Shown here piece by piece: positions 9,802 to 57,513 of a stretch of 64,000 nt of DNA (position 1 is the stretch's first letter; every line of letters starts with the position of its first letter). The DNA comes from Azolla caroliniana. Lineage: Eukaryota > Plantae > Polypodiophyta. A program made the position numbers and the translations under genes. Location of the stretch: NCBI GenBank assembly GCA_043228905.1, contig JBHGNT010000012.1, positions 15,500,001-15,564,000 of the forward strand, given 5' to 3'. The notes beneath the pieces were generated by a model. The model ran no database searches and had not been told where the DNA came from. It worked only from the letters and a program-made list of their open reading frames with translations.

Positions 9802-9804
9802 GTT

Positions 9805-11876: not shown

Positions 11877-14800
11877 CTATCCCCCCTTTAAAACGAGTGT
11901 CAGGAGCCGTTTTGGATTGAGAACCCGGTTTATCTGGATATTGACGATGGAAGTCTTCAAGAAGAGCATGAGCATTGGTCACATTCACTATTGGTTCCCA
12001 AGTACGCTCGCTGGGACTATATCCTAGCCAATCGACTAAATAGTAGAGCTTGTTGTGAATAATCTTGGAATCGAGGATGGTGGCAACCTCGTACTCAGGT
12101 CCATCTTCAAGTTCGATTAGGGGTGGAGGTTGTGGAATAAGTCCTAGGATGATGCTGTCTTGATAGAATTCGAGGAGAGAACTATGAAACACCGGATGTA
12201 TGCAAAGTTGCGGGGGTAGATCGAGACGAAAAGCGACATCATTAATCTTTCCAATAATACGGAATGGACTTAATCGCCGATAATCCAACTTCTCACATTG
12301 GCGAATAGTCTTAATGTGTCGTCGTAGTAGCCATACCCGATCTCCAATGTTAAAACTAGATGGAAGCCGATGACAATCTGCGTAAACCTTGTGTGTTTGT
12401 TGAGCTTGTTGTAGATGAGTAGATAAATCTGCTTGTATCTTGCGTAACCGCTCCAAATGATCCTCTATGCAAGGATTTGTGGGTAAATCTGGCTTTCAAA
12501 TACACACCACAGGGGGTGACAACCCGTATAAGCATAAAATGTTGTAACTTTAGTCGATGAGTGGACAAAGTTATTATAGGCAAATTCGGCGAAGTGGAGA
12601 ATATCTGCCTAGTCATCCTGATGATAGCTTAGAAAGCACCGAAGATACTGCTCCAGCATTTGATTTGTTTGTTCTGCTTGGCCATCGGTTTGCAGGTGGT
12701 AGTCAAAGGAGAGGTTACAAGTGACCTTGAGCATTTTAAAAAGGTGCTTCCAAAATTTCAAGACGAACTAGGGTCCATGGTGTCGTGTAGTTTTTCACAC
12801 ACAATATAAAAACTATGTAAAAAAATAATGAAATAATTATTTTTTATTAGATTAGTAGCTTGTTATAGAAATATGGATGTACTCAAGAGTTTCAAAACGC
12901 ATTTTACTACATACAAAATAGACAACTACATATCAAGTTAGGTGGACATGAAGCTTGAGAAGATAGGGAAAATAGAATTTTGAAGTATCCCACATAGAGA
13001 GGAAACTTAAGGCCTTGACTATATAAGCACATTCAGATCCCTCATTTTTCATTTGTGCTAAGAGCACTTTGACCACTTTGTCTAGATGGATGAATGTGGC
13101 CAAGTTCCCAAAAACCGACTGGCAATGAAATGGAACCGGTTGGTAATAAAATGGAACCAGAACCGGCCGAAAAGCAAACAGGAACCGGCCAGTAAGAAAA
13201 TCGGAACCTGTCGGTAAGCAATCTGAAACCGGCCGGTAAGCAAGCCGGAACCGGTCGGGAAGCAAACAGGAACCTACCGGTAAGCAAATTGGAACCGGCG
13301 AAATCGGCAATCGGATAGTGTCGGAAACCGGGCGGATCTGACAACCGGTGATCGGGTGGAACCGGCGACCGGACGAGGCTGGACGCGGACCGAACGGATT
13401 GGATGGGCGGCGATCGAGACGGACAGATGATAGGATCATGTGGCTAATTAAAGTAAAGTAAAGAAAACTAAAGTAAAGGTCATGTGGACGGTCGCATGCA
13501 ACTAAAATTAGATGCAACTAAAAGTAGAGGCCATGCGACTAAAAGTGGACATTCAAAGTAACATGGAAGGCTATGATCAACGGAGAACTCCATATAAAAT
13601 TCCATTTTTTTTCCTACACTCACTCTCTCTCCATATTATTTTCTTTTCCTTCTTAGCTCCCTTATCTTATGGAAGCCATAACTCTCATAAACCCTACATT
13701 TCCTTACGGAAGCCATAAACCCTAAATTTCCTTACGAAAGCCAAGATCCCTAAATTTCCTTACGAAAGCCATAAATACTAAATTTCCTTACGGAAGCCAT
13801 AATCCTTAATTTTCCCTACGGAAGCCATATCTCTCAAAATCTAAAATCTCTTATCAAAGCCAAAAACCCTAAATTTCTATTGAATCCATATTTAATTTCT
13901 TGTAATCTATTATTCTAGTAATCTCCATAAGCTAAACTTTTGTAATCCCAATCTTGGGATTGATTGTAATCTTTCTTTTCGTTTGTTAATGAAATTTGTC
14001 AATCTTTCTTATTTCTATTAATTGTTTAATATAAACATATGAATCTGATATCCTCCGGTCGGACGCCTCGGGATCCTGCCTTAAGTTCGCGTGTCCTCGT
14101 CGTATTTTTCACGACAACGGTCGCTGATGATATTATCGGGAAGGCCATGATGTCGACATACTTCACGCATGACAGTTTCGATAGTTTCTTCACTGGAGAT
14201 TTCCTTAGTACATGGTAGGAAATGAGCCATCTTCGTATATCGATCTACTAATGTTAAAATCGCATTGAATCCCTTAGAAACTAGAAGATCTGTGATGAAA
14301 TCTAGAGCAATGGATTGCCATGGCTGGCTTGGAATTGGTAATGATTCTAATAAACCATATGGATGATGCCTTGGCATTTTTACTCTGCAACATGTATCAC
14401 AAGTCTGAAAAAAATCTTCAATAAATTGTCGCATACAAGGCCACCAGAATGATCGTTGTACTAAATCTAATGTCTTAGTACTACCAAAATGCCTAGTTGT
14501 ATATGTGTCATGACAGTTTTGGACAACTCAAAGGAGACAAGAACCATTAGGAACATACAAGAGATTGTTAAAGAATAGTAATCCATCATGACATTCGAAT
14601 TGTCGATAGACGGTACCTAGTTGTTGCGATTGTGAACAAGATGCTCTAGAGGGATCAATTTGTGCTTGAATGGCTTGGATGAAAGTATATGTCTTCAAGT
14701 CCTCACATATGGTATAAAAAACGTGGGAATCCAAGGGCATGCCGAAGACCTGTGTTGCTTGCAGTCATGCCCGTCCCAAGATTACTTGCTTTTGGTTATC

Positions 14801-23391: not shown

Positions 23392-23403
23392 TTGAACCGA
23401 TTT
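23392..23403 (+). promoter_or_regulatory. Putative self-priming PBS
   Basis: TTGAACCGATTT, 2 nt after LTR end, complementary to AAATTGGTTCAA (23137-23148, one G-U pair) ~33 nt downstream of TATAAAA. Confidence 0.7.
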
Positions 23404-32924: not shown

Positions 32925-33114
32925 GTTAACATAACACAATGTACTTTGTGTGTTAAAAGTCAGAGGTTCGACTCTAGAATGTGACATTATCCCCCTTCCT
33001 ACGTCGCCTTCCCAAAATCGGTCCTTGGCTTAAGTTGATATTGTTGATGAAAATCTTAGACCACCTCCAAAGTATTTTATAAATCCTAGACAAGGAGTAA
33101 CCCTTCAAGAAGAC

Positions 33115-33903: not shown

Positions 33904-33907
33904 ATGG

Positions 33908-35661
33908 TGTCGTGAAAATCCATCACTATGTGCAGATCGTGAGGCGGAACCACCGGGGTTATGAACGGGAAGAAAATAGGGCTTACACGCACAACACAAG
34001 GAAGGCTTACACAAACAAGGCATGAGTATTCGAACATGTTTGTGAAAAGGAGAGGTGCATGGGCAAGCCCGAATCAACCCCTAGTCACGAGGCAAATGAA
34101 TGCACGTGAGGAAGGCTTACACACGGACACACAAGGAAAAGGCTTACTTACACACACGAGAGACAGAGTTTCGAATGCCTTTGTGAAAAGAGAGGTTCAT
34201 GGGCAAGCCCGAACGCTCCCTTGTTACAAGACACACGAACGCACAAGGAAAAGGCTTACACACACGAGAGACAGAGTTTCGAATGCCTTTATGAAAAGAG
34301 AGGTGCATGGGCAAGCCCGAACACTCCCTTGTTACCAGACATGCAAACACACAAGCAAGGTTTACACACGGGAGACACAATTTCGAACGCCTTTGTGAAA
34401 GGAGAGGTGCATGGGCAAGCCCGAACGCTCCCTTGCCACAAGTCGCATGACCACACAAGCCAGGTTTACACACGGGAGACACAATTTCGAATGCCTTTGT
34501 GAAAGGAGAGGTGCATGGGCAACCCCGAATGCGCCCTTGCCACAAGTCGCACGAACACACAAGAAAGACTTACACTAACACACAAGACACGATTTTGAAC
34601 GCCTTTGTGAAAGGAGAGGTGCATGGGCAAGCCTGAATGCTCCCTTGCCACAAGTCCCACGAACACACAAGCAAGATTTACACTAACACGCAAGACACGT
34701 AAGTTTGAATGCCTTTGTGAAAGGAGAGGTGCATGGGCAAGCCCGAAACGCTCCCTTATCACAAGACACACAAACAAATAAGCACAAACGAAGATAACAT
34801 ATAAGACACGTAGGTTTGAATGCCTTTGTGAAAGGAGAGGTGCATGGGCAAGCCTGAAAAGCTCCCTTGTCACAAGACACACAAATAAATAAGCACAAAT
34901 GACGATAACAAATAAGCACAATCAAGATTTACACATAAGAAAAGTAGATGAAAGAAAATATTATTTTATATCAATATAATAGAGTCTTTTATAATATAAG
35001 AATCATGTTACAATGGGTTGGATGCGAATATGAAGGATTGTTTAGAAATGAATGGGTGAAGAGAGGTGGAGGAAAGAAGAGAGTGGAGTATAGAAGGAGT
35101 TTCTTTGTTGATGATGCCTCTCGATGTTGTTGATCCTTCTTCTTCCACTTTCCAATTGAGTAGAGCTTCTGTGTTCCTTCTCTCTCGCCCCCTTCTTCAC
35201 TAGAATAGGCTCTTATTTATAGGTTTAGGATTGCTTGCCTTTTTCCCCTAAAAAAAGCTTGTCTATATGAGTCGACTTTTATTTTACTCACTATTTCTAT
35301 TTTCTAGCCCCCAATTTCACATGCAAGATATTTTTGGAAAGCTCTTTGGGTTAGCTTTCTTATGAATCTTTTCTTTTCTAATTTGGGTATCTGACGAGGA
35401 AATTATGAGCTTTTTTCTCTACTGTGCTCCTCATATCCACGCGTGCTTCTTTTTTCTCTGCATCTTTTTCTCTACTTTTGAAAACCGCCTCTAACTTAAT
35501 ATTCATCATTATTTATTGTAAGGTTCAATACTTTGACCATTTATTTATAAGGAATTATCTTTGGAAAATGAAAAAGTATTTTTCCTAGGTCCAATAAAGT
35601 TGACTTCACAATACTAGTTTATTTGAACTACTATTTTACTTCTTTTCGAGGTGGTTTCACA
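33908..35661 (-). mobile_element. Solo LTR-like insertion of the 4-bp-TSD group
   Basis: Starts TGTCGTGAAAATCC (reverse of the U5 end of LTR 49007-50041), ends TTTCACA; flanks ATGG (33904-33907) / ACGG (35662-35665). Confidence 0.75.
34040..34900. repeat. Tandem repeat, ~105-115-bp unit, ~8 copies, related to 1720-2315
   Basis: GCCTTTGTGAAAGGAGAGGTGCATGGGCAAGCCCGAA recurs. Confidence 0.88.
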
Positions 35662-36146
35662 ACGGAACACGAACGGGCATGAGCGACCATGCGTCACTCA
35701 CCGAGAACTAGAAAACAAACGGACGTGAGTGACCATGTGGTCCTCACCGACAACTGAACACGAACAGATGTGAGCGACCATGAGGCCCTCACCAAGAACT
35801 AGAACAACAACGGGCGAAGGAGTGAAAGTGAAGTGATCGACTCGACTTCTTCTATTATGAGAAGGTAAATAGTCGAGGTTGACCCAAGAAATGGCACAAA
35901 CGGTAGCGCTAGCGAGAAACCCACGCGATCCCCACTAGGAAAGTGAGTGGTTGTGACCCCCACCGAAACTAGAAGGTGAGCGATCGAAATCGGTCCTCAC
36001 CAACAAAAAGTGGCGCGAGACTTGAACTATAACGAAAATGCATTGCAAGCGAGAAATGATCTGATCCCCACCAGGAAAGTGAGCGGTTGTGGACCCCACC
36101 GGAACTGGGAAGCTGAGCGATTGAAAACACTCCTCACCAAAACCGT

Positions 36147-37212
36147 TGTCGTGAAGATCTTCGGCAATAGTGTGAAAATCCTATAAAACCTACGAAATCG
36201 AGTATAAATCACATAGTACAATAATTGTGAAGATAACATTTTAAATAGATTTAATATCTAAGTACAAAATGATGGAGGTTTCGAATGCACTTTAATACAC
36301 GAGAAACGGACAACTAAATGTCAAGATATGAGGGTATAAAGTTTGTAAAAGGAAAGGAGAAAATTGTGAGATATCCCACATAGGCACGACAAATACAGCT
36401 CTCATCATATATAAGGTGGAGCAAAAGATATTATCTTTGTGTCTATGTGTGGAGCATAGAGAGTTCAAGGTAACTTGAACTAAGAGTGGAGGTGGGCTAG
36501 CTACTCATAAAGGGTTTTGGCCAACCAAAACCGGACCGGCGATGGAGCCGGTGATCCGGCGGCAATCCGGCGGCATCCGGCGAGGCACCGGTATCCGACG
36601 GTGCACCGGTAACCGACGGTATCCGGCAAACCGGCGTCTGACGACTAGATAAATAAATATATAAATATATTTACATATTTACATATACAAGGAGAGCAAG
36701 TAAGGATTCGAACCTTGCACCTCCAAGTTAGGAGTCAATTGGCTTACCATTAAGCCATGCTATTTAGTTGAAATTATATTTCTATCATTGTACTTTTACA
36801 TGTAAATTCTCATACATGAGAACTAAAATGAGTGACATGGTTATCATGCACCACATGTAATACATAAGCGCCAAATGGCAAACATGCAATTTATGTATGT
36901 CTTGTACCCTCACATGCATCATATGCATGAGAGCATCTATAAAAGAGGGAAGGGGGAGGAGAAAAAACACGGTTTTTTTTATGAAAATTAAGAGGAAGAA
37001 ATTCGTTATCAAATTGATGGTGTAACTTGTTTCTTAAATCCAAAGATAAAACTTCAATCAATCTTTCTCAATCGTTTAATCTCAACTTCTCTCTTTCCCA
37101 ATCTATCTTAAGTACTTTCTCGCCAAAGCTTGTATCGACTCTAAATCCTTCTGGTCCAAAACCCCGGCAGTTCCGCCTCACGATCCGCGCTTAGTGACGG
37201 ATCTTCACGACA
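36147..37212 (+). mobile_element. Solo LTR of the 49007-56908 Gypsy family
   Basis: Near-identical to 49007-50041; TSD CCGT (36143-36146, 37213-37216). Confidence 0.95.
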
Positions 37213-37980
37213 CCGTGATTCAAAATGTTACCTAAAAATGATGACAAGTAGTGTTGATGACGGCGATGGTTGGGTGAAGAGGTGCTGAAAATGATGACAT
37301 CGAAGACAAGGATGTTGATGATGGTAACTCCAGAAGCAAGGATGGTGATGATGGTAACTCTAGAAGCAAAGGCGATGACGAGGATGGGTGGTGCTTCCAG
37401 TTGGAAGGGATTCAAACTGTCACAAACACACCAAATGCGGACTAGGACGGATGAACTTGCAGCTAGATGTGGCAAGGCTAGGAACTCTAGATGTTGTGAG
37501 CGACATGAGAGCATGAAGACAAAAATAAAGATCAAGGAGACAAAGATGAGGCGAAACGAGAATACTATATTGATGTGTCAATGACTAGTGTTGAATCCCT
37601 CGAAAGGGACCAAGGATGTTACAAGTATTTATACAATTTCCGAGATTGAATTTCTCTCGAATATACTCGAGAAATATCTTGAGAATATAGCTATTTAGAA
37701 TATACCACATAATAATTCAAGAATATACTAACGACTAGAATATTCTCGAATGTACTATAAACTAGACTCTACAATATATACAAGTTCACAATCGAATGTG
37801 GACAATTCACAAGAGTTTCGATATGGTTAACATAACACAATGTATTGTGTGTGTTAAAAGTCAAAGGTTCGACTCTAGAATGTGACACTGTGTATCTTAA
37901 GCTTTCCATTAAACTTGTGCATTTTCTGTTGCTATCCAGCTAAACCGGTTTGTCTATGCTTCCGCACACTAACATTTACA

Positions 37981-39761: not shown

Positions 39762-39769
39762 GTTATAGT

Positions 39770-41016: not shown

Positions 41017-44000
41017 AACATCAGGTCATTTGAAACAAGTAATATGTCGCATTCTGTTTTTCATATCTTAGTGAGATGTTAAAAAATGCCTTATTTAAGC
41101 AGAATTTCCAAAAGGCATGACGCATGTGTATGTGGTTTATGAAAACATAGCAAAAAATAGAACTAACTAATATCACGTCAACAAAATCATCCGATGTATA
41201 TTCTATCTACCATGTTTTTGTCCAAATCTTAGACAGGGGTATATTCGTCAACGCAAGTATAATAGTAACACGAGTCCTGGATATTCTAAAAAGCATACCC
41301 CACCGAATAAGTGACTTCTTCTAATTATGTGTGTATATTTATATATAATATATCTTAATGCAAATTGTGAACCTTGCAATTTAGAGATACTACTATGTCA
41401 GGAGAAAATTTTCATTGACACATGATACATGACACCGTCAATGTATAAATAAACTAATCTACAATAACATTCCAATCATACGAGTAAATGATAGAGTATA
41501 ATTTTATCTCCCATATACCCGAAATGATAAATGAGACTTTAGACAACATGTACACATACAAATTATACTTAATCTCTAAGTTCAATGAGTGTTACACAAA
41601 AATTATAAATAAGCTCAACTTATATATTACGTCAAAATTTAACAATTCATATTGTTCAAATTTTACGATAATCCATATCCATTCAATCAAATAATAAGTC
41701 TGGTAATGCCGTCTCTTCAGGATTAGCTCTTTTATCAAGATTGTCCTCATTGGCTTCGTCGGTACGCTAAGTTGAATCATTAGTATATTCAGACTCTAAC
41801 ACGTCTTCTAATTCAACAAAGTCCCCTGCTTCTTCATCTATAAGTTTCATAGGTTCTCTAAAAGTCATCTGGAACATCTCAGTTTCATTGATATGCTTTC
41901 CCCCAACTTCTTGGTCTTGATCAGGATAGTCCCAAATACCTTGGATCCTCATTTTGATGAAATTAACCTGCTCAAGGTCCTTCTCTAATGCAACTAAGTT
42001 CTTGAACATCTTTAAGGCGCATGTTGTAATAGTACATGACACTAGAATGAAATTACACATGTAACATCAAATTGAAGAATAGACTATAACGTTAATCTAA
42101 ATTGATGTGACAAGTTTTATATACCTGTGTCGGAAAACAAATCTAAAACCGATTGAAATTTGAAAAAATAAAAAATCTTGGATTTTCAACTAGAATCCAA
42201 TGCAATACACTAGATTCAGTTCAAAATCCAAGATTATTTCAAATTTTGTAATTTTTTAAAAACTTTCTAGAACAAAATAATAAATGGATTTTCAGCTAAA
42301 ATACGATGCACTACATTGTATTTTACTCTATACAGCTAGAATCCAATGTGATGCATTGGATTACAATCGAAGATCCTTTTTTCTTTTTCCTTTTTTCTTT
42401 TTTCTTTTTTCTTTTTTCTTTTTTCTTTTTAAATGTTACTTATTAATTTATATTTTTTTCTATATAAAATAATAATAATAAATGGCTTTTCAACTGAAAT
42501 CCGAAGCACTGCATCAAATTGTAGTCTATACAGCTAGACATCGATGTAGTACATCAAATTTTAGATCACAATCCTTTTTCTTTTCAATTGTTTTTCATTT
42601 TTTCGAAAAATAAATAAAAATATTTAAAAATATTGATTTCCAAATAAACTCTAATGCACTACATTGGATTTCAATTGAAAATCCAGATTTCTTTTAGTTT
42701 TTTCATAAAACAATAAAATAACAATAAAAAATTTGCATTTTCAATCGAAATCTGAAGTAATGCATCGGATTTCATTTAAAAATCCTTGATAAATGAAAAA
42801 AGTATACATTATTTTAAATGGCCAAAATGCATGATTTTTTTATTTTTAACATTTTTTTATGGAAAAAATAAAGAAAATCAGAAAATTTGAAAAAAAATAA
42901 GAAAAAGTGGATTTTAAACTGAATTTTTCCATTGAAAATCCATTTTCTCAATTATTTATTTATTTATTTATTTATGGGAAAATTTCAAAATTTCAAAAAA
43001 TAAGAAAATTTGGAAACAAATAAGAAAAAGTGGAATTTCCGTTGAGAATCCATTTTTTCAATTTTTATTTATTTATTTATAGGAAAACTAAAAAATACAA
43101 AAATAATCCAAAAATAAGAAAATTCGGAAACAAATAAGAAAAAGTGGAATTTCAACCGAAATCCATTGCATTGCATCAGATTTATGTTGAAAATACATTT
43201 TTTCAATTTTTATTTATATATTTATGGGAAATTAGAAAAAGTGGACTTTCAACAGAAATCCGATGCAGTGCATCGGATTTCCATTGAAAATCCATTTTAT
43301 AAATTTTTATTTATTTTTTTATGGGGAAAATAAAACAAATTTTAAAAAAACACAAACAAATTTCTAAAAATAAGAAAATTTGGAAACAAATAAGAAAAGG
43401 TGCACTTTCAACCGAAATCCAATGCAGTGCATCGAATTACCATTGAAATTCCATTTCTTCAATTTTTATTTATTCTTTTATGGGAAAAGTAAATAATAAT
43501 AATTCAAAATTCAAAAAAAATTTCAAAAAATAATAAAATTTGGAAAAAAGTAAGAAAAAGTGGACTTTCAATCGAAATCCAATGTATTGCATCAGATTTC
43601 CGTTGAAAATCCATTTTATCAATTTTTATTTATTTATTTATGGGAAAAATAAAACAATTCAAAAAAAATACAAAACAATTTCTAAAAATAAGAAAATTTG
43701 GAAACAAATAAGAAAAGTGGATTTTCAACTGAACTCCAATGTACTGCATCGGATTTGCTTTGAAAATCCATTTTTTAAATTTTTATTTATTTATTTATGG
43801 AAAAAATAAAAACATTTTAAAAAAATAAAAAATTAGGAAATTCGGAAACAAATAAGAAAAAGTGGACTTTCAACTGAAATCCGATGCAGTGCATAAATTA
43901 TCAAAGTACATAATTAAATATCATAACCAAAAAGTGAAGAAAAAAGAATGCATCAAGCACATGTACTCCTAAATTGGATAATGTATACTACTATATAACT

Positions 44001-44547: not shown

Positions 44548-44934
44548 GTGGAGTCCACAAACTCCAAACATATCACTATGATAGAGAAGAAGTACAATGA
44601 GGAACTCGAAGGCAACGACCTCGAGTTCTCCTTCGTCTGACAGACGGCTATAGAGTTGCACTCTCTTTGTCTTACGCAGTTATAGAGGCCACTACCTTCT
44701 TGTAACTCACAACCTAAACATACAACAATGTTCTACCTCTCTTTCCTAAAGTTTGCCCTAGTTGTATTTATACTTATACAACTTGATGGGTATTTACATA
44801 CATAGCCCTCATGGGCCACATTTCGACTATTTACAAATATAGTCTCCCGAGTTACTCATCAACTCAGCTCTTCTCTTTCCATCCGGAGGGACCTGTTTCC
44901 CAACAGAAATATGGGGTGGTGGATCTCTATATAT

Positions 44935-45720
44935 GCTTGAAGATGGGTCGGGGATGACTCATCAAACGTTGATGAAGTGGATCGAGAAGAAGGGGAAGAA
45001 CATGAACACATCGGGAGTGTACACCGAATTTGACCAAATGTACAACTATCTCCCGAGAACCGAGCAAACACTTCTCGAAGGAGATAAAGTTTTGTACTTC
45101 TTAAAGGCGGTGGATGCAAAAGATAGACAAGAACTAGGTAGTCTATTAGAGGACGAAGCACAACCCAATGGTCTCATAACGGATTAGGTTGCGGTAAGAA
45201 GAGCATGTGATCGATTTGACAAACGTCGACATGGCAGGCCCGGTAGTCCAAAGAAGGAAGGCTCCAATATCAACTAAGATGACAAAGCAAAGCGAGCCAA
45301 CCGAAAGAGCGATGGAGAACTCTGTCATTGAAGAGTTGGCACGAAAATTCAAAGAGGTTTCGTTAGCTAATATGAGTCATAGAGGGCCGAAGGGGAAAGA
45401 CCCATATAGATGTGTATGGTGTGATAGTGATGATCATGCAAGGAAAGAATTTCCTAGCCTTCATGAGGCAATTTGACAAAAACCTCATTTACATGGAAGG
45501 CAACATTATACACTCAAGTGAAACTCGAAAGCCCTTGCAAGTGAATTTCAGTAGGGGGGGTCTAAAGGAAATCATGGATGAGGCCGATACGAGCCATGTC
45601 GAAGCTATACACTAAGCCGCATCCACCAATATAAGAATCGGGAAGGAGAAGCTTGGAATGATTAGACCGGGAATGAGGTTTTGGCCGACAGTCCTCGAAT
45701 ACGAAAAAAAAGGGAAGATT
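44935..45720 (+). pseudogene. Gag relic related to the 49007-56908 Gypsy
   Basis: MTHQTLMKWIEKK...LYFLKAVDAKDRQELGSLLED and YRCVWCDSDDH align with ORF 50109-52307. Confidence 0.85.
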
Positions 45721-46479
45721 AATTGCATTTTGGACATACCCTGGCCGTCTAGAGGAGATTTTGAAGGTATCTGACATAGTTTTTTTTAGTAGAAACACAT
45801 CAGAGCCCAAATCGAGGACTACCACGAGTTCACGGTTTTCATTGGGAATCTGTCTTTAGACAAACCTCATGTCGACATACTACTAGAGGGTCTGGAGGGG
45901 TTGCGATACTATTTTGAAGAGAGATACATAATCGGATAGAAATACTAAAGAAAGACCAAGAAGACCGTTTTATGTAGTGAAAGTCCTCACTGGCAAGGAT
46001 CACGCAATATTTATCACCGTGTGTTACTTCCCCCCGAAAGGATCCCGGTATAATATGGCTGGAGAGGGGAGTATAGTTGATGAAGGAACACTGCATGGGC
46101 CTTCGCGATACGAACCTTTATCAGATGACATAATCTGATATTCTTCTCAAGGGGAATTCTTCCTTGTAGGAGATTTCATGCAAGAACCCAATCCCAACAA
46201 TGCACAATATTTCAGATGGATAGAAACCTTCAAATGGTGAATGTCGACCATTTAGACTTAGACATAATGCGTACATCAAAGGATCACAGTGCGGACGCCA
46301 CAAGCTTTGGCCATCATCTGCTTGAACTTGGAAGCCGACACCAGATGATCATATATAATGGCTTAGCCAAGTGGCCGAGCTCGGAAGCGCTCACCTGTTT
46401 CCCACATGGAGGAGGGGAAAGCACAGTTGATTACCTAATAGGACACCCTGAAGCTACCCACATGGTTAACTCCTTCCGG

Positions 46480-48287
46480 TGTCGTGAAAATCCATCACTA
46501 TGTGCGGACCGTGAGACGGAACTGCCGGGGTTCTGGACTAGAAGGATTTAGTGCAACACGTAAAACATAAGCAAGTTTTAAGCATAAGACAAGTGGGAGA
46601 GACAAATCATTAGTTTATTACAAAAGAAAATCGATTCTTTATAATTTCAGAATCGTGTTACAATGGGTTGGGTATGGAAATAAGAGATTAATTTTTCAAA
46701 GAAAGGAGCCAAGAACCATGCAAGGAGTGGTCCGATATGAGTACGAGAGATATATTTTTGACAAGAAAGATCGAGTCAACAAAGCTAGGAGTTTGATATC
46801 AATATGTGAGATAATTTGTTTCTCGAAACCGAGAGGGGAGAAGAAGGAAGAAAAAAAAACTAGGAGGGAAAAAATGGGACATATATCGAGCTCCTTGTTG
46901 ATCCTCCTTCCCAATGTTACTTTGCATGCCCACTTTTAGTTGGATGGTCTCTATTTTTAGTTGCATGGCCTCTACTTTTAGTTGCATGCTTCTATTTTTA
47001 GATGCATGCCTTTTTACTTTTAGTTACATGGTCTTGGCTTTTGGTTGCATGCAACTGTCCGTATAATTCGACCAAATGACACAATCATCCATAAAGTTTA
47101 GCTCGTGCACAATCCGTACGTGCATTGCAACCAAACCATAGACGCGTCTGCGCACAAAAGTCCCGACCGCGTAGTGTACGCATCCACGCGCGCGCACGTG
47201 TCCAACCCGCACCGTGTACACATCCGCGCGCAAAAGTCTCGACCACGCCGTAGTGTACGCCTGTGTGCAAAAGTCCCGACCGCGTAGTGTACGCATCCAC
47301 GCGCGCGCGCGTCCAACCCGCACCGTGTACGCATTCGCGTGCAAAAGTCTCGACTGCGTTGTAGTGTACGCATCCACGCATGCACGCGTGCACACACACA
47401 CGTCCGCGCGCTCGTCCGCACACATGCATCCATCCGAAACATCCACACGTACGCCTGAAACTTGCACACGTGCGTACATCCAAAGACATCCATGCGCGCG
47501 TATGTCCGAAAACGTCCACGCGGCCATGCACACACGCATACACCCAAAGCGTCGACCGCGTTGTAGTGTACGCATCCACGCGTGCACGCGTGCACACACA
47601 CACGTCCGCGCGCTCGTCCGCACACATGCATCCATCCGAAACATCCGCGTACATCCAAAGACATCCATGCGCGCGTATGTCCAAAAACGTCCACACGGCC
47701 ATGCACACACGCGTACACCCAAAGCGTCGACCGCGTTGTAGTGTACGCATCCACGCATGTGTGCGTGCACACACACACGTATGCGCGCTCGTCCGCACAC
47801 ATGCATCCGTCCGAAACATCCACGGGTACGCCCGAAACTTGCACACGTGCGTACATCCAAAGACATCCATACGCGTGTATGTCCGAAAACGTCCACGCAG
47901 CCATGCACACGCGCGTACGCCCAAAGCATTAACACAGTCGTGCATACACGCGTATGCCTGAAGCGTGCACACCACACAGTGTAGCCCAAGTCACCTTGAA
48001 CATTCTGTGCTCCACACATTGATAGAATGAATATGTTTTGGTTTCGCTTATATATTCTGGGTTCCAATGTTGTCCTATCTATGTGGGATATCTCACAATT
48101 TTGTCTTTTCTTTTCTTTTCTTCAAACTTTACACTCACATAACTTGATACTTGTTTATCCATTTTATGCGTAGTAAAATACACTATGAAGCTCTTGAACA
48201 CATCTATCTTTCCATATCAATATATTAAGCTAATCATAAATAATTATTTTACTAGTTTTCATATCGTGTGTGAAAAATCACACGACA
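46480..48287 (-). mobile_element. Solo LTR, TGTCGTG...CACGACA family
   Basis: TSD CCGG (46476-46479, 48288-48291); ends related to LTRs 49007-50041 and 12781-14116. Confidence 0.9.
47130..47975. repeat. CG-rich alternating purine/pyrimidine repeat inside solo LTR
   Basis: Recurring GTAGTGTACGCATCCACGC and CATCCAAAGACATCCATGCGCGCG units. Confidence 0.85.
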
Positions 48288-49528
48288 CCGGGGGTGGCCC
48301 CATGCCCCATTGGTGCAGACCATAGCTTCCTATACTTTGAGCTAAAATATGACACCTCCCACGCCACCAACTTTAGTCAACCAAACCATCACACCATAAT
48401 ACATTTCACGCATGAGCTCGCTGACATCTACTCCCAACATGTTCAAGCCCATCTCTCCTCTTTTGATTCTTCCTTGCCTTTAGAGAACCTCACTACAGAA
48501 CTCACACACACCCTTCACTCAGCAGCAATTAGTAGCTTCCCATACACGAAACACTTCAATCATAGTAGAATAGGGTCTATGCCACAGAACAAGTGGTATG
48601 ACGAGGATTGTAGAGAGTTGTATAAACAACTTAAAGTGTCGCGACTTAGTGGTACTATTTCCTCAGTACAAGCTCGAAAAGAGATGCGCAAGATGACACG
48701 TCGTAAAAGACGAGCTTGGGAAGCATCCCAATATTGGGAACTCTACCATATGCTCATGAGTAGGGATTGTGCCCTTGCATGGAAGAGACTACAAGAATCG
48801 CGACCACAAACACCCATTGAGGAGCCCAATATTTGGCACACATATATTGTTGGGAGACAGGTCCCTCCGGATGGGAAGGAAGAAGAACAGTGCCGACGAA
48901 CAAATGGTATGAGGAGTACCCGGCTACGGAGAGCCGGATGATACAGACCCCGTGAGGACCAGATGAGGAGTACCCGGCTACGGAGAGCCGGATGATACAG
49001 TCCCGGTGTCGTGAAGATTTTCGGCAATAGTGTGAAAATCCCATAAAACGTACGAAATCGAGTATGAATCACGTAGTACAATAATTGTGAAGATAACATT
49101 TAAAATAGATTTAATATCTAAGTACAAAATGATAGAGGTTTCGAATGCACTTTATTACACGAGAAACGGACAACTAAATGTCAAGATATGAGGGTATAAA
49201 GTTTGTAAAAGGAAAGGAGAAAATTGGGAGATATCCCACATAGGCACGACAAATACAGCTCTCATCATATATAAGGTGGAGCAAAAGATATTATCTTTGT
49301 GTCTATGTGTGGAGCATAGAGAGTTCAAGGTAACTTGAACTAAGAGTGTAGGTGGGCTAGCTACTCGTAAAGGGTTTTGGCCAACCAAAACCGGGGCCAA
49401 CCAAAATCAGACCGGCGATGGAGACGGTGATCCGACGACGGCACCGGTAACCGACGGCATCCGGCGACTAGATAAATAAATATATAAATATATATATACA
49501 TATTTACATATACAAGGAGGGCAAGTAA

Positions 49529-49582
49529 GGATTCGAACCTTGCATCTCCAAGTTAGGAGTCAATTGGCTTACCATTAAGCCA
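49529..49582 (-). promoter_or_regulatory. tRNA-like A/B-box module in LTR (copies at 36704-36757 and 56397-56450)
   Basis: Minus strand A box TGGCTTAATGG and B box GGTTCGAATCC, 43-nt offset, with D-arm and T-arm-like stems. Confidence 0.72.
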
Positions 49583-50108
49583 TGCTATTTAGTTGAAATT
49601 ATATTTCTATCATTGTACTTTTACATGTAAATTCTCATACATGAGAACTAAAATGAGTGACATGGTTATCATGCACCACATGTAATACATAAGCGCCAAA
49701 TGGCAAACATGCAATTTATGCATGTCTTGTACCCTCACATGCATCATATGCATGAGAGCATCTATAAAAGAGGGAAGGGGGAGGAGAAAAAACACGGTTT
49801 TTTTTAATTATGAAATTAAGAAGAAGAAATTCGTTATCAAATTGATGGTGTAACTTGTTTCTTAAATCCAAAGATAAAAAGTTCAATCGATCTTTCTCAA
49901 TCGTTTAATCTCAACTTCTCTCTTTCCCAATCTATCTTAAGTACTTTCTCACCAAAGCTTGTATCGACTCTAAATCCTTCCGGTCCAGAACCCCGGCGGT
50001 TCCGCCTCACGATCTGCGCGTAGTGACAGATCTTCACGACATAATTAAGTCGTGAACCCGACGTGAAAGAGGCGGTAGGAAGGATCAAGTCGAGATTAAT
50101 ACTTGGAG

Positions 50109-52307
50109 ATGGCGTCCTCAAGCAACCAAGTAGGAGAGCTCGAAAGGATGATGTTAATCGTCAAGCAAATGATGAGATCTCGGGACAACGACGCGAGCGT
50201 GGAGAAGGCTGTCGATCGTGTCGTAGAGCTCGAGGGCCAATTCGATGGAAGGAACGTTACGAAGTTCCTTGATGCATATAGAAGGGAGATGAATCAGAGG
50301 GGCGTGTCCAAGGCACGTCAAATCGCAAGCTTCAAGAGAGTTGTCGCCAACAAGATCCAAAGACGCGTCATCGAGCTTCAAGAAGGTAAGACAACATGGT
50401 CCGAGTTCGAGAAAACGATACTAGCGGAGTTCGTGACTGAAGACTCAACGAGGATGACTCGACATGCCCTAATGAAGTGGATAGAGAAGAAGAATAAGAA
50501 GATGAGCGTCTCGAGGGTGTACGACGAATTCGACCAGATGTTTAGTCGTCTCCCCAATACGGACCAAGTGTTGCTTGAAGAGGACAAGACTTTGTACTTC
50601 TTGAAGGCCGTGGACATAAAGGATAGACGGGAGTTGGGGACTCTTCTCGAAGATGATACCCAAGCAAATGGGCTCGTAGCGGACTGGATCGCGGTGAAGC
50701 GGGCATGCAATAGGCTCGACAAGCGTCGCCAATGGGTTGATGACACCGACTTGACGGGACCGACTACCACGGAGAAAGCAAGACCGCCGAAAGTAGCTGA
50801 GTTGCTAAGACAAAGTAACGTGGAAGAAAAGAAGATTGATGACGACATCATTGAAGAGCTAGCGAAGAAGTTCGAGAAGGTCACGCTAGCCAACATGAAT
50901 CGTCGGGGCCCTAAAGGAAAAGAACCCTTTAGATGCATGTGGTGCGATAGCATGGACCGCATGAGAAGGGATTGTGCGAGCCTTCGAGAGGCGATTCTAC
51001 GAAATATCGTATACATAGAGGACAACATGGTCTGCTCAAGCGAGACTAGAAGACCCCTACGGGTGAATTTCGGAAGAGGAGGAATGAAGAAATCTATGGA
51101 GGATGCCGATGCGACTCATGTGGATGCGATGCACTATGCTGCGTCGGCTAGAATAAGAGTCGGGAAAGACAAGACTGAAGCTGCTAGAGCGGGAGCAAAG
51201 TTTTGGACTTCCGTTCTCGAATATGAGAAGAAGGGAAAAGTCACATCGAACGAGGTAGAGCTTGCGGACCGAAACGTGCAAACCATAACCGGGTGGTCGG
51301 ATCTGGTGGACGACAACACCATACTCGCAGAGGTGATGTGCGACAACCACGAGGTGTTCGTCGAAGAAAAGAGAAAGAGAATAGAAGAGCAAGGCCCATC
51401 AAAAAGACATGAAACAAGGAACGCGAAAAAGAAGGACGATGCGGAGACGAGTCGACCTTTACAAATGGAGGAACGAGAATCAAGCCGAAAAGGGGAGCCG
51501 AGCATAAGAGTTGAAGAAATGGTTCAGCCCGTGAAGGTTGGTGTCGAAGACCCCGCTCGGAGGACAAGGACTATACCTACCTATAAGCTAAGGTCGGACA
51601 TAGAGCAGACGACGGACCTAAAGAAGATTCTCGAAGAACGAGTTCTTGATAGCCACGTAACTTTGTCCTTGAGGGAATTGCTTGGCATTACGAAGAAGGA
51701 GTTCCATGACACGATCGTGGACCTTGTAAAGAGAAAGAGACAACAATCGGACGAGGAAGAAGAGAAGCCGCAAAAAGCAAAAACGAACGCCATAACGATG
51801 GCAAGAGACGAAGTCGATGAAGATATGGTGGACAGCCACTATACTCGACCTCATTGGGCACGAGCGACAATGGAGACGCCGGTGAAGATCGGGGAGAAGA
51901 AAGAGACCGTGGTAGCCTTGATCGACCACGGCTCGGAGATCAACCTCATGTCAACCGACTTCTACAAAAAAGGAAGATGGCCAATTAATACAAACCACAG
52001 ATGGAAGATTCGCGCGGCAACAAAGTCTACGGAGGACTTGTACGGAGCTTGTCTCAATATCAAAGTCACGATCGGGGATGTGGAGATGGAACAACACTTC
52101 TTCGTACAAGAATCGGCGTCACATCCTGTCATCCTAGGGCAACCTTATATCACATCATCTCGGATGGAGACCAAAGTATTCGATAATGGAGCAGCCTTCA
52201 CACGAATAAAGAGTCTTGAAAACCAAAGATCGGTCCAATTCCTAACGGTGCGAGCCAATCATGAAAGGAATCGAGATAGTCTCGGAGGCGAATCCTCGGA
52301 TTTTTAG
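50109..52307 (+). CDS. Gag plus aspartic protease (~732 aa)
   Basis: Open ORF; FDGRNVTKFLD, knuckle-like CMWCDSMDRMRRDC, protease ALIDHGSEINLM...VILGQPY. Confidence 0.88.
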   Translation: MASSSNQVGELERMMLIVKQMMRSRDNDASVEKAVDRVVELEGQFDGRNVTKFLDAYRREMNQRGVSKARQIASFKRVVANKIQRRVIELQEGKTTWSEFEKTILAEFVTEDSTRMTRHALMKWIEKKNKKMSVSRVYDEFDQMFSRLPNTDQVLLEEDKTLYFLKAVDIKDRRELGTLLEDDTQANGLVADWIAVKRACNRLDKRRQWVDDTDLTGPTTTEKARPPKVAELLRQSNVEEKKIDDDIIEELAKKFEKVTLANMNRRGPKGKEPFRCMWCDSMDRMRRDCASLREAILRNIVYIEDNMVCSSETRRPLRVNFGRGGMKKSMEDADATHVDAMHYAASARIRVGKDKTEAARAGAKFWTSVLEYEKKGKVTSNEVELADRNVQTITGWSDLVDDNTILAEVMCDNHEVFVEEKRKRIEEQGPSKRHETRNAKKKDDAETSRPLQMEERESSRKGEPSIRVEEMVQPVKVGVEDPARRTRTIPTYKLRSDIEQTTDLKKILEERVLDSHVTLSLRELLGITKKEFHDTIVDLVKRKRQQSDEEEEKPQKAKTNAITMARDEVDEDMVDSHYTRPHWARATMETPVKIGEKKETVVALIDHGSEINLMSTDFYKKGRWPINTNHRWKIRAATKSTEDLYGACLNIKVTIGDVEMEQHFFVQESASHPVILGQPYITSSRMETKVFDNGAAFTRIKSLENQRSVQFLTVRANHERNRDSLGGESSDF

Positions 52308-52360
52308 AGCGGACTATTGAAGCATGGGGCACAAATAGTCCGAGCAATCACAAGACCCCA
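52298..52360 (+). promoter_or_regulatory. Putative -1 ribosomal frameshift signal (G_GAU_UUU plus pseudoknot)
   Basis: Heptamer 52298-52304 just before the TAG; -1 frame open into pol; stems CGGACTATT/AATAGTCCG and TGGGG/CCCCA. Confidence 0.75.
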
Positions 52361-55300
52361 CAAGAAAGAAAAGTGCGTGGATTGCAAGGAGAAGCAACAT
52401 GTGTCACACCTAGTGGCGCATGTAAACTAGTACTACCCGACAAGAAGCACAAGCACCGGATACATAAATTCGAGAAGATGCTGAAAGAAGAGAACATAAT
52501 AGAAGAAGGGGAGTTCGTGACTCATATTATGGAAGAAGCCTCATTTAACGACACCATCGGCGAAATCGAGGACGTCGTGGACTTGAGCTATCTTCACAAC
52601 CAATGCGTGATTTCGGTTAACTCCGTCAACATGTACGCTATCATCGATGAATACCGTCGTGGCATCTCGATGAAGGAAGCTGACATCAACACGAAATATA
52701 AAACGGTGGATAAGAAGATCGAGCCAGTTGCGGTTCCGCTACCGGAAGATAGCTGGCAAAAGATGAAGGAAGTCGCTAACGATCCAAGCTTAAGAGATCC
52801 GAAGAAAATAGGTCATGTCTTCACCAAAGAGACGAAGGGGAAGCTACGAGTTGGAAAGGAGAATTTCCTTCTCCCTGAAGAGGACCGAATGTTTCGCGAT
52901 ATGCTTGAGAGACATGGGAAGGCTTTCTCATTCTTCCCACGAGAAATCGGATGCGCCGACCCAAAGGTTATAGAGCCGATGGTGATCTTCACGGTGCCTC
53001 ATGTGCCTTGGAACTTGAAACCGATACCGGTTCCGAAAGCACACCTTCCGAAGCTGATCGAGCTCTTAAAGGAGAAGGTGAGTATGGGAATTCTAGAACC
53101 GTCGAATGCTCCTTATTCCAATAGGTGGTTCACGGTGCCAAAGAAGAATGGATCATTGCGATTCATCCAAGATCTTCAACCCGTCAACAAGGTGACAATT
53201 CGAAATGCCGGAATCGGTTCGAGCGTGGACGACTTTGCCGAAGCGTTTGCGGGCCGGTCCATCTACTCCATTGGCGATCTCTACTCCGGATATGACCAAT
53301 TCCAATTGGCGATTGACAGTCGGGACATTACAACCATGAGGACTCTGATTGGGCTTGTGCGGATGTGTACCTTACCCCAAGGCGCAACAAACTCGGTGGC
53401 TCATATGGTGAATGCCATGAATAAAGTCTTGAAGGATTGCATTCCGGACTTCACGATGCCATTCTTGGATGATATTCCGATAAAAGGATGTTCGGATGAG
53501 GAGAAAGATGAATCGAAAGATAAGGAAGGTTGTAGAAAGTTTGTTGCGGATCATATGAAAGATTGCGAGAAGGTGCTTCAAAGGCTCGAAGATGCGAATT
53601 TGACATTTTCGGGAGAAAAATCCGCATTCGGGCAACCGGAGATCTTGGTGGTAGGTCACTTGTGTGGAGCATACGGCCGGAAGCCCTCGCCATCCAAAGT
53701 GAACGCAATCCAAGACATGAAAGAAGAATGCGAAAACCAAACGGAGGTTCGAAGGTTCCTTGGAGCGTGCGCGTTTTATCATATATGGATTCCTCACTAC
53801 GCTCATGTCGCCGAACCGTTATATGGACTACTAAAGAAAAGAATAAAGTTTGAATGGCGAAACGAGCACACAGAGGCGATGCGAAGATTAAAGAAACTGC
53901 TTCTTGAAGCTCTGGCACTAATGAAGGCCGACTATGCCGAAGGGAAACCAATTTACGTGACCGTAGATACGAGCCCAACCGGAATCGGTTGGGTCATCAA
54001 TCAAGAAGGTGAAGATAATGCGCGATATGCCGTCCGGTTCGGAGCAAAGGTTCTCAGCGAACGGCAACAAAGATATGCCCAAGTCAAGCGGGAACTTTGG
54101 GGTATTGTGTCGGCAGTGAAGACGGACAAAGATTACCTGATCGGGTCAAAAGTGATAATAGAGACAAATTGTCTCCCAATTCTCGGAATGGTCTCGGGAT
54201 GTGCGACCCCAGATCTTGCTATGCTAAGGTGGATCGCCTACATCAAGTCTTTAAACCCAGAGATCCGTCACATCGCGGGGAAGAAGAACGCCATGGCTGA
54301 CATGCTATCGAGGGCAAGATTTTCAAATGGAAGTAACATGGTTTCGGAAGATGAAGATGTCGCCCTCGACTTCTTCAAGATGGCTCGATTGTCGGCGGAA
54401 GACCAGGACACGCAAACCCTCCACGCCTTCAACGAGAACGAGTACGAAGGAGAATGGTTACTCATCGGTAGATTCCTAAGAACATTGACGATAGATGCTT
54501 CGTTGACAAAGGAGGAGGCCCTACGAATCCGAAAGAAAGCTTACCGATAGTTCTTGAAGGGAGGATTCCTTTGGCGACATCCAAAAAGAAGGACAGGAAT
54601 ACCACGTCGAGTGGTGGTAAAGAAAGAAGAGCAAGAGACGCTGATGACCGAATTCCACGAGAGTGCTTGGGCAGGTCATAGAGGAACATGGGCGACGTTC
54701 GAAAAATTGAAGGAGAAGTATTGGTGGCCAAGCATGTACAAAGATGTACTCCATTTCGTGTCCACATGTGAAACTTGCCAAATATATTCAAATATATGTC
54801 ATCGTGATGAGTTAAAGCTGACATACCCACTCACCATTCACTTCAAATGGATGGTGGATCTGGTCTCGATGCCAATGGGAGTGGGACAAATGAAGTACTT
54901 AGCGCTGGCAAGAGAAGACTTGACAAATCAAGTGGAAGGACGAGCCTTGACAAATAAGACGACTTCAGCCGTTTGTAAATTTTTACTTGAAGATGTTGTT
55001 TGCCGATATGGATGTGTAGGGAAGATAGTGGCCGACTGAGGGGAGTTGGACGCGCACGAAGCGACGGAGCTCTTCGAAAGACTAGGCGTGAAGCTCTCCC
55101 TCACGACTGCCTATAATCCGGAAGCAAATGGGAAGATCGAGCGAGGGCATGGACCTATCGTTAAAGCCATCGTACGGGCATGCAACGGTCGAGTCAGGAA
55201 TTGGCCACGACTATTACCCTATGCCTTGTGGACCGATAGAACGACCCATAGCTCGGTGACAGGGTATATGCCGACGGAGCTTATGTATGGACAAAAGCCG

Positions 55301-55765
55301 ATTATGCCCATCGAAAGGACGATCGCCTCATGGGTAGCGATACCGTGGGAGAACGAGATGAGCCGAGAAGAGTTATTAGCGGCGCGGATAAGGCAACTTG
55401 AAAGAAGACTTGAAGATTTAGAAAAAGCGCGAAAGATGATGAAGGCAGCCCGAGTAAAGAACAAAGTTCGGTTTGACAACACGCATCAACTTCGTCCCAA
55501 GAAGATTGAAGAAGGGGATTGGGTTTTGGTTTACGACAGCACCCTTGACAATCAACACAGTACAACAAGGAAGTTCGCAAGAAGATGGTTCGGGCCGCAT
55601 GTGGTGACAAGTGCCAACGATAATGCCACATACCACCTTGTAGAACTAGACGGATCAAGGTTGGCCGTACCCATTGCGGGAAAAAGAGTAAAGATTTTCA
55701 AGAAAAGACAAGACAAGGATCCTGACCTCGATTACCTCGACGATGAACATAATAGGCCGGATTAA
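52298..55765 (+). pseudogene. pol (RT, RNase H, integrase) with two in-frame stops (54548, 55037)
   Basis: DLYSGYDQ, LPQGATNS, FLDDI, VDTSPTGIG, H..WAGH...CETC, WMVDL, YNPEANGKIER, WFGPH. Confidence 0.92.
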
Positions 55766-57513
55766 AATGAAGACATGGAGGAATCTAATTGATCATTGTA
55801 GCCGAAATCTCACTTCTTCTCTTCTTGGCACGTACCGGAGGACGTGCGGTTTGGTGGGGGTGGATGTCGTGAAGATTTTCGGTAATAGTGTGAAAATCCC
55901 ATAAAACGTACGAAATCGAGTATGAATCACGTAGTACAATAATTGTGAAGATAACATTTAAAATAGATTTAATATCTAAGTACAAAATGATAGAGGTTTC
56001 GAATGCACTTTATTACACGAGAAACGGACAACTAAATGTCAAGATATGAGGGTATAAAGTTTGTAAAAGGAAAGGAGAAAATTGGGAGATATCCCACATA
56101 GGCACGACAAATACAGCTCTCATCATATATAAGGTAGAGCAAAAGATATTATCTTTGTGTCTATGTGTGGAGCATAGAGAGTTCAAGGTAACTTGAACTA
56201 AGAGTGTAGGTGGGCTAGCTACTCGTAAAGGGTTTTGGCCAACCAAAACCGGGGCCAACCAAAATCAGACCGGCGATGGAGACGGTGATCCGACGGCATC
56301 CGACGACGGCACCGGTAACCGACGGCATCCGGCGACTAGATAAATAAATATATAAATATATATATACATATTTACATATACAAGGAGGGCAAGTAAGGAT
56401 TCGAACCTTGCACCTCCAAGTTAGGAGTCAATTGGCTTACCATTAAGCCATGCTATTTAGTTGAAATTATATTTATATCATTGTACTTTTACATGTAAAT
56501 TCTCATACATGAGAACTAAAATGAGTGACATGGTTATCATGCACCACATGTAATACATAAGCGCCAAATGGCAAACATGCAATTTATGCATGTCTTGTAC
56601 CCTCACATGCATCATATGCATGAGAGCATCTATAAAAGAGGGATGGGGGAGGAGAAAAACCACGGTTTTTTTTTATGAAATGAAGAAGAAGAAATTCGTT
56701 ATCAAATTGATGATGTAACTTGTTTCTTAAATCCAAAGATAAAAAAAGTTCAATCGATCTTTCTCAATCGTTTAATCTCAACTTCTCTCTTTCCCAATCT
56801 ATCTTAAGTACTTTCTCGCCAAAGCTTGTATCGACTCTAAATCCTTCCGGTCCAGAACCTCGGCGGTTCCGCCTCACGATCCGCGCGTAGTGACGGATCT
56901 TCACGACACCGGTGAAGACCGGATGAGGAGTACTCCGCTACGGAGAGCCGGATGATACAGGCCCGGTATGAACCGGATGAGGAGTACCCGGCTACGGAGA
57001 GCCGGATGGTGCAGAACCGGTGAGAACCAGAGGAAGAGACATATTCATAAATATGTTTCTGAGAGCCCATCGAGGCTATATTTGTAAATAGCCGAAAAGT
57101 CATATTAGTATAAATATGACTTAGGGCAAACTTTTAGTTGAGGTTGTCGTTCTTCCTTGTTGGTGCAAGAAGAAGAGAGAGCACGTAATAGTGTAGAGAG
57201 AGAGAGAGAGAAAGAGGTCGTTGCCTCTGTTGTAACCACCGCGTGTGGTGAAGATCTGTGAGCACGAGGTCGTTGCCTCAGTGAACTCACTGTTGTACAT
57301 TCTCACATAGTGACAGTTTAAAGCCTGTGGGCTGCCGTGGTTTTTCCCTCTTTGGGTTTTCCACGTAAACCTCCTGTGTATCTTCCTCTCCTTTGTGTCG
57401 TGTTTTATTTCCCGTTTTCTGTGTATCATTCTACGCTCGGTTGTGGCCGAGCGTCGCGCATAAGGAACGTCGGGTTCCTGTCAAGTGGTATCAGAGCAAA
57501 ATCGACACAGAAA

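What the first reader, a model, noticed from the sequence alone, without database searches (positions are those of the whole stretch)
12777..56912. Gypsy LTR family with 4-bp, CGG-containing target sites
Seen: every insertion of the TGTCGTG...CA LTR group with two readable flanks has a 4-bp TSD: ATGG/ACGG (12777/14117), ATGG/ACGG (33904/35662), CCGT (36143/37213), CCGG (46476/48288), CCGG (49003/56909). The truncated copy ending at 3195 is also followed by CCGT. Allowing CpG decay of ACGG to ATGG (supported at 12777 by the restored host SDRGP), all read [A/C]CGG on one strand, in different hosts and both orientations. The other LTR families here have unrelated 5-bp TSDs. Known: plant LTR elements usually make 5-bp TSDs with weak preference. 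Inference: a sequence-specific integrase that steers the family into CG-rich transposon DNA, possibly tied to methylation state; I recall CGG/CCGG being reported as hypomethylated in Physcomitrium, which needs checking.
Basis: partly seen in the sequence, partly recalled or inferred. Interest (0 to 1): 0.85.

Follow-up and report, generated by a model that had tools for sequence, protein, structure and literature searches.

The report
Phygy-type retrotransposon that inserts at CG
These jumping-gene copies do sit in 4-base duplicated target sites centred on CG, but this is likely the already published habit of the Phygy group of moss and fern retrotransposons, and related copies elsewhere show that the target is CG in general, not CGG.

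Summary
All five two-sided insertions have a 4-bp duplication (three exact, two with one C>T change), whereas three copia insertions have 5-bp TSDs. The one full element (49007-56908, 7,902 bp) is a Ty3/gypsy without chromodomain, with a tRNA-type PBS. This matches the Phygy clade, published with a 4-bp TSD in 100% of 186 elements, motif NCGN (Neumann 2019, PMC6317226). The narrower CGG claim fails outside the window. Of 48 distinct flanks of related LTRs in metagenome contigs, 34 are NCGN (background 3.4%) and 47 are CG or a deamination product of it. Only 16 of the 34 are [A/C]CGG on either strand, and CGG as such is not enriched (19/34, p=0.11). The fuller motif is about [A/C]-CG-[not A]. 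CGG-context targets decay as often as the others (9/28 vs 4/19), and flanks are not CG-rich, so the hypomethylated-CGG idea has no support. Likely mechanism: an integrase with a 4-bp stagger that bends the target at a central CG step. Placement against REXdb could not be run. Verdict: ordinary member of a known kind; methylation sensing remains untested.

The parts
49007..56908 (+). Full-length non-chromovirus Ty3/gypsy element, 7,902 bp, inserted in the 5' LTR of a copia element
   Evidence: LTR pair 97.4% by BLAST, 12 substitutions in 1,032 columns, K2P 0.012; Pfam RT, RNase H, integrase H2C2
49003..49006 (+). TSD CCGG, left copy (right copy 56909-56912); empty site seen in the host's sister LTR at 61708-61747
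49007..50041 (+). 5' LTR, TGTCGTG...CACGACA
50042..50067 (+). 8-nt spacer (50042-50049) and 18-nt primer-binding site (50050-50067); one mismatch to the commonest PBS of relatives; tRNA-Trp identity recalled
   Evidence: 11 of 12 internal junctions carry it, 6 exactly; complement equals a CCA-ended 18-nt small RNA in PMC5846777 Table 3
50100..52307 (+). gag ORF with a protease-like motif near its end (motif read by eye)
   Evidence: Pfam gives only DUF4100 below cut-off
52280..55765 (+). pol (RT-RNase H-integrase) in an overlapping frame, broken by in-frame stops at 54548 and 55037; no chromodomain
   Evidence: best solved integrase match of the 92%-identical homolog P0001 is PFV integrase, E 7e-23
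55846..55864 (+). G-rich polypurine-tract-like stretch before the 3' LTR
   Evidence: similar stretch before the LTR in L005, L008, L027, L046, L049
55865..56908 (+). 3' LTR
36143..37216 (+). Solo LTR 36147-37212 (92% to the full element's LTR) with TSD CCGT/CCGT
46476..48291 (-). Solo LTR 46480-48287 of a sister subfamily with TSD CCGG/CCGG, in a LINE-like remnant (host identity from a recalled motif)
12777..14120 (+). Solo LTR 12781-14116 of a more distant subfamily, TSD ATGG/ACGG, in the integrase of a chromodomain-bearing (Tcn1-like) gypsy
33904..35665 (-). Solo LTR 33908-35661 with internal tandem repeats, first 23 bp missing, TSD ATGG/ACGG, in a tandem-repeat host
1696..3199 (-). Truncated LTR-like copy ending at 3195, followed by CCGT; left end not defined; membership weaker
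44930..45720 (+). Isolated gag fragment of a sister subfamily (46-63% aa to the full element; 92% DNA to L047)

Best explanation
These are one full copy and several solo LTRs of a group of Ty3/gypsy retrotransposons, likely of the Phygy clade, that duplicate 4 bases on insertion and sit on a central CG, likely because their integrase selects that step. Shown: 4-bp TSD, CG centre, edge preference of about [A/C]-CG-[C/G/T], non-chromovirus structure, tRNA-type PBS. Inferred by analogy with the PFV intasome: cuts 4 bp apart need a sharp bend at the central dinucleotide, which favours pyrimidine-purine steps; extra base contacts would narrow this to CG. Inferred: after insertion the duplicated CGs are methylated and deaminate, giving the TG, CA and TA variants and the mismatched TSD pairs. 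Because CG is self-complementary, both orientations occur. Whether the integrase senses methylation is untested.
For: Phygy in Neumann 2019: n=186, TSD 4 bp (100%) (NCGN), 7,656-9,968 bp, PBS tRNA-Trp 81%, no extra domain (supplement file 3; text passage). This element: 7,902 bp, 4-bp TSD, no chromodomain, coding region filling the interior. Outside flanks: 34/48 NCGN vs 3.4% background, p=5e-39; 47/48 CG/TG/CA/TA; position 1 A or C 29/34 (p=8e-6), position 4 not A 33/34 (p=3e-6); positions 5-14 show no strong bias by eye. Six 5' flanks: CCGT x4, CTGT, GCGT. In runs X1, X4, X9 the majority letters after the LTR end are ACGT (85, 90, 75 contigs). Phygy and Tcn1 are reported together in ferns (PMC13477047 passage) and in Physcomitrella; the window holds both types. 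Central YR preference of 4-bp-TSD retroviruses: PMC4422553 passages; PFV is the best solved integrase match.
Against: No phylogenetic test against REXdb Phygy sequences was possible (the FASTA and per-element table were too large to read); no homolog is named from Physcomitrium. tRNA-Trp identity is recalled; scans for the tRNA gene found nothing. TatI also has 4-bp TSD and tRNA-Trp. Outside flanks are mostly one-sided; of three two-sided cases only L029 matches, while L058 (CCGT/CCGG) and L061 (CCGT/ACGC) do not, possibly chimeric contigs. The loci are 67-94% identical relatives, apparently from one series of assemblies, not shown to be this genome. Under the outside distribution 5 of 5 [A/C]CGG in the window has probability only 0.014-0.023. 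The read-based majorities have agreement of only 0.38-0.40 and include PBS junctions, which can inflate T at position 4.
Confidence: 0.82

Rival explanations
1. One reading: the integrase reads [A/C]CGG specifically and so targets a CGG context that is under-methylated.
For: 5 of 5 two-sided window sites and the 3195 flank fit; probability 0.014-0.023 under the outside distribution. The set ACGG/CCGG/CCGT is enriched among outside NCGN sites (16/34 vs 16.5% background, p=3e-5). Ginger1 transposases, related to gypsy integrases, use exactly CCGG 75% and CCGT/ACGG 24% (PMC2836005 passage).
Against: 18 of 34 intact outside sites are not in the set; CGG trinucleotide is not enriched (19/34 vs 43.9%, p=0.11); the count of 20/47 equals the 19.8 expected from independent edge preferences. 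CGG-context sites decay no less than others. The recalled moss report was not found.
Confidence: 0.07
2. The integrase accepts any flexible pyrimidine-purine centre (CG, TG/CA, TA) with CG merely preferred, so some TG/CA/TA sites are original and not decay.
For: 47 of 48 centres are YR steps; general YR preference of 4-bp-TSD retroviruses.
Against: CG is the rare YR step (3.4% background) yet makes 34 of 48; in both window cases one TSD copy keeps CG, and at 12777 the host codon shows CG was original; young Phygy elements are reported as NCGN.
Confidence: 0.15
3. The group is not Phygy proper but an unnamed sister lineage of non-seed plants, with fungal relatives, that shares the CG target.
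For: Nearest named proteins are Riccia (56-62%), Smittium (39-41%), Chara and Adiantum (about 30%); Phygy was defined from Physcomitrella only.
Against: Size, TSD length, TSD motif, lack of extra domain and (recalled) primer all match Phygy; Phygy labels are since reported in a liverwort and in ferns.
Confidence: 0.15
4. The CGG-type flank is part of the element's own inverted termini or a chance pattern, not a target duplication.
For: CCGG is palindromic and the LTR ends are inverted repeats.
Against: CCGT/CCGT at 36143 is a direct repeat; internal LTR ends are followed by spacer/PBS or preceded by the PPT; the empty site has one CCGG; p=5e-39 outside.
Confidence: 0.01

Closest known systems
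Phygy clade, non-chromovirus Ty3/gypsy (Neumann et al. 2019, PMC6317226; passages and supplement file 3 read)
   Same: 4-bp TSD, NCGN motif, size within 7,656-9,968 bp, no chromodomain, coding region fills the interior, PBS recalled as tRNA-Trp type
   Different: Host is probably not Physcomitrium (earlier unchecked notes suggest a fern); edge preference [A/C]..[not A] and an 8-nt LTR-PBS spacer are not stated in the parts I could read; tree placement untested
Ginger1 DNA transposons (Bao, Kapitonov, Jurka 2010, PMC2836005; passages read)
   Same: Gypsy-related integrase, TGT termini, 4-bp TSD centred on CG (CCGG 75%, CCGT/ACGG 24%), GPY/F motif
   Different: Cut-and-paste elements of animals with TIRs and no RT; much narrower motif; the YPYY motif is only partly matched here (aromatics conserved, no conserved proline)
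Prototype foamy virus and gammaretroviral intasomes (Serrao et al. 2015, PMC4422553; passages read)
   Same: 4-bp TSD with a central pyrimidine-purine step that takes the bend; closest solved integrase
   Different: Weak YR bias there, near-exclusive CG here
Drosophila gypsy, 412 and Idefix clades (Linheiro and Bergman 2012, PMC3276498; passages read)
   Same: Gypsy-superfamily elements with 4-bp TSD and clade-specific target motifs
   Different: AT-rich palindromes (TATA, ATAT)
Selgy and TatI (PMC6317226, supplement file 3)
   Same: Non-chromovirus, 4-bp TSD; TatI uses tRNA-Trp
   Different: Selgy is 4.4-6.7 kb with tRNA-Ala; TatI is 8.9-9.4 kb with an extra aRH domain; no TSD motif reported for either

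Membership tests
Ty3/gypsy LTR retrotransposon | TG...CA LTR pair, PBS, PPT, order RT-RH-INT | tested here: met
Phygy | RT-RH-INT cluster with Physcomitrella Phygy in a tree (primary definition) | not testable with these tools
   REXdb FASTA too large to read; no named Physcomitrium homolog returned
Phygy | 4-bp TSD | tested here: met
   5 of 5 window sites; 1 of 3 two-sided loci match
Phygy | TSD motif NCGN | tested here: met
   34/48 intact, 47/48 with deamination products
Phygy | PBS complementary to tRNA-Trp | tested here: inconclusive
   Conserved 18-nt PBS, complement of a CCA-ended plant small RNA; Trp identity recalled; no tRNA gene found
Phygy | Size 7,656-9,968 bp, coding region spans nearly the whole interior, no extra ORFs | tested here: met
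   7,902 bp; ORFs 50100-55765 within interior 50042-55864
Phygy | No chromodomain and no extra domain in the polyprotein | tested here: met
   Pfam scan of the four ORF pieces; no PF00385 among listed homologs
Tcn1 / chromovirus | Chromodomain after integrase; 5-bp TSD; self-priming | tested here: not met
TatI | Additional aRH domain; 8,950-9,421 bp | tested here: not met
   One RNase H region only by Pfam; 7,902 bp; no aRH-specific profile was available
Selgy | 4,432-6,724 bp; tRNA-Ala PBS | tested here: not met
   7,902 bp (size only)
Ginger1 | TIRs of 40-270 bp, transposase only, no RT | tested here: not met
   Direct LTRs and RT present

The most novel reading that the evidence does not exclude
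The integrase of this lineage reads the methylation state of the central CG (most likely favouring methylated CG, which would send copies into already silenced repeats without a chromodomain) and docks with a fixed orientation, giving the asymmetric motif [A/C]-CG-[C/G/T] (ACGC 6 vs GCGT 1, CCGC 5 vs GCGG 1, TCGT 4 vs ACGA 0; p=0.02-0.04 uncorrected, post hoc). CG targeting would then be an old trait shared with Ginger1 transposases and fungal relatives.
Probability: 0.15. Interest if true: 0.65.

Novelty: new member of a known kind. Interest (0 to 1): 0.2.

Why it matters
The headline trait is published: Phygy is the one plant LTR lineage that Neumann et al. report with a target motif (NCGN). 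What this adds is small: the trait holds in relatives outside Physcomitrium (probably a fern), with an edge preference of [A/C]..[not A] and a weak hint of orientation bias. A CG-centred integrase is a clean system for asking whether a retrotransposon can read DNA methylation directly; nothing here shows that it does.

Tried and rejected
No own genome is held, so no genome-wide logo. LTR-end and integrase scans of viral contigs and genome contigs found nothing. Scans for a tRNA gene matching the PBS found nothing; a paper search for the PBS string found none, its complement 17 small-RNA papers; PMC12877858 did not identify the tRNA. Laying contigs on the LTR end gave only majority letters, no per-site counts; in X16 the majority read ACAT (28 contigs). 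CGG hypomethylation in moss: searches and passages of PMC6453930 (0 'CGG'; CCG dependence on MET/CMT only) and bioRxiv 2020.03.04.971267 (0 'CGG') did not show it; subscription papers are not in the library, so it may exist. Rfam found an LSU rRNA fragment at 1203-1474 but nothing at 3100-4600, so my early note that the 3195 copy sits inside rRNA is not established. YPYY motif test inconclusive (110 of 161 sequences aligned). PMC7466625 (RLG families), bioRxiv 2022.02.23.481133 and PMC6839031 (GingerRoot, 6-bp TSD) added nothing on target motifs. Rows dropped before the count of 48: 12 internal PBS junctions, 5 duplicates, and L001 (no LTR-like upstream sequence; it is itself NCGN). Dropping also L007 and L039 gives 33/46. 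No tree was built, for lack of reference Phygy sequences.

Full report
Observation. For the five two-sided insertions I compared left and right flanks at 3 to 6 bases; 4 fits best every time, with three exact pairs (CCGT, CCGG, CCGG) and two pairs with one C>T difference (ATGG/ACGG). Two host checks support this. The copia LTR interrupted at 49003 has an intact sister at 61708-61747 with a single CCGG. The chromovirus integrase interrupted at 12777 reads IISDR then GP only with ACGG. A third host, at 46476, is not restored in frame and gives no support. Three copia insertions have 5-bp TSDs CTTCT, TATAT and TTTCC. NCGN is 4.4% of window 4-mers, so five of five is about 2e-7. One correction: the 35661 end lacks the first 23 bp found in relative L029 and starts at an internal TGT.

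What the elements are. 49007-56908 is a 7,902-bp element with LTRs 49007-50041 and 55865-56908 (K2P 0.012), a gag ORF with a protease-like motif, and an overlapping pol with RT, RNase H and integrase and two in-frame stops. There is no chromodomain. The others are solo LTRs of the same (36147; 92%) or sister subfamilies sharing 5' or 3' ends. After the 5' LTR come an 8-nt spacer and an 18-nt PBS, present in 11 of 12 internal junctions among relatives, 6 of them exactly. Its complement is a CCA-ended 18-nt plant small RNA listed as miR894 and mapped to gypsy repeats in PMC5846777 Table 3. That this is the 3' end of tRNA-Trp is my recall; no call showed it. The nearest named proteins are from Riccia (56-62%), then Smittium, Chara and Adiantum. 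The host is a non-seed plant by inference; earlier unchecked notes on this genome say probably a fern.

Is the motif CGG? No genome was held, so I scanned metagenome contigs for the conserved last 21 bases of the LTR: 66 loci, whose LTRs are 67-94% identical to window copies. Twelve continue into the PBS side; 54 are external, 49 distinct, 48 without L001. Of these, 34 begin NCGN against 3.4% background (p=5e-39) and 47 have CG, TG, CA or TA in the centre. Among the 34 intact: CCGT 6, ACGT 5, ACGC 5, ACGG 5, CCGG 5, CCGC 3, TCGT 2, TCGA, GCGT and GCGC 1 each. So [A/C]CGG on either strand covers 16 of 34. That is enriched over background (p=3e-5) but fully explained by independent preferences for A/C at position 1 and not-A at position 4 (20 observed vs 19.8 expected of 47). 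CGG as a trinucleotide is not enriched (19/34 vs 43.9%; p=0.11). In three runs that hold about half of the element's sampled words, the majority letters after the LTR end are ACGT, with low agreement and PBS junctions mixed in. Against my reading: the window's five of five has probability 0.014-0.023 under the outside distribution, the loci are not shown to be this genome, most flanks are one-sided, and two of three two-sided loci have unequal flanks.

Methylation. Thirteen of 47 centres are deamination products, which by inference means these CGs are methylated at least after insertion. Decay is no rarer in CGG context (9/28) than elsewhere (4/19; p=0.51), and both decayed window TSDs are CGG-context. 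Flank CpG observed/expected is 0.49-1.05 against 0.88 for the window. I did not find the recalled report of CGG hypomethylation in Physcomitrium (searches; passages in 29, 33). None of this tests the state of a site before insertion.

Mechanism. Shown: 4-bp duplication, CG centre, edge bias. Inferred: integrase cuts 4 bp apart and needs the sharp central bend described for PFV and other 4-bp-TSD retroviruses, which favours pyrimidine-purine steps (PMC4422553 passages). PFV integrase is the best solved match of the close homolog P0001. Bending alone does not explain why the rare CG step beats TG and TA, so base-specific contacts, or methyl reading, are needed; neither was tested. A weak orientation bias (G at position 1 in 3/47, C at position 4 in 12/47; p=0.02, post hoc) may be noise.

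Comparison. Neumann et al. 2019 state that Phygy elements have an insertion preference for NCGN and are the exception among plant LTR elements; their table gives 186 elements, 4 bp (100%), 7,656-9,968 bp, tRNA-Trp 81%. PMC6911290 also reports 4 bp as commonest for Phygy and Phygy nested in Tcn1, as at 12777 here. Phygy is reported in a liverwort and in ferns. Every Phygy feature I could test is met or inconclusive; the defining tree placement could not be run because the reference FASTA and the per-element TSD table were too large to read, and that table may already contain the edge preference. For all papers I saw search listings and the passages returned, plus supplement file 3 of PMC6317226; none was read whole.

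Verdict. A real feature, correctly seen, but a known one: new member of a known kind, interest 0.2. The open point is whether the integrase reads methylation (probability about 0.15).

Noticed in passing
window 50042-50049; L003, L008, L010, L015, L023, L032, L038, L044, L045, L047, L056: A conserved 8-nt, nearly palindromic spacer separates the LTR's CA from the PBS. PMC6317226 methods treat 0-5 bp as the usual distance. It implies a long overhang on one cDNA end for the integrase to trim; unexplained.
   Followed up: partly
window 35661; L029:1056-1130: The LTR lacks its first 23 bp, bounded by TGT at both ends, with the TSD copy still adjacent: a microhomology deletion or integration from an internal TG.
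   Followed up: partly
window 1203-1474: Fragment of a bacterial-type LSU rRNA on the minus strand, probably organellar DNA in the nucleus.
   Followed up: partly
window 5081-10438: Copia element on the minus strand with an uninterrupted 1,404-aa polyprotein frame, LTRs 95% alike and a 5-bp TSD.
   Followed up: no
window 1696-2313, 34045-34916, 46900-47930, 33113-36146, 42830-43900: Several tandem arrays: a ~105-bp unit inside two LTR subfamilies, ~175-200-bp repeats inside the 46480 LTR, a host array hit twice by this group (33904, 36143), and an AT-rich ~160-bp array.
   Followed up: no
window 44930-45720: Orphan gag fragment of a sister subfamily, 92% identical to L047, directly after a copia-like LTR end.
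   Followed up: partly
L058:122-761 and L061:200-1293: LTR-length stretches whose two flanks are both NCGN but differ: chimeric assembly or recombination between copies.
   Followed up: no
P0263 (Smittium culicis), P0242: A fungal pol is closer to this element (39-41%) than the Chara and Adiantum hits (about 30%); one distant relative carries PF00628.
   Followed up: no
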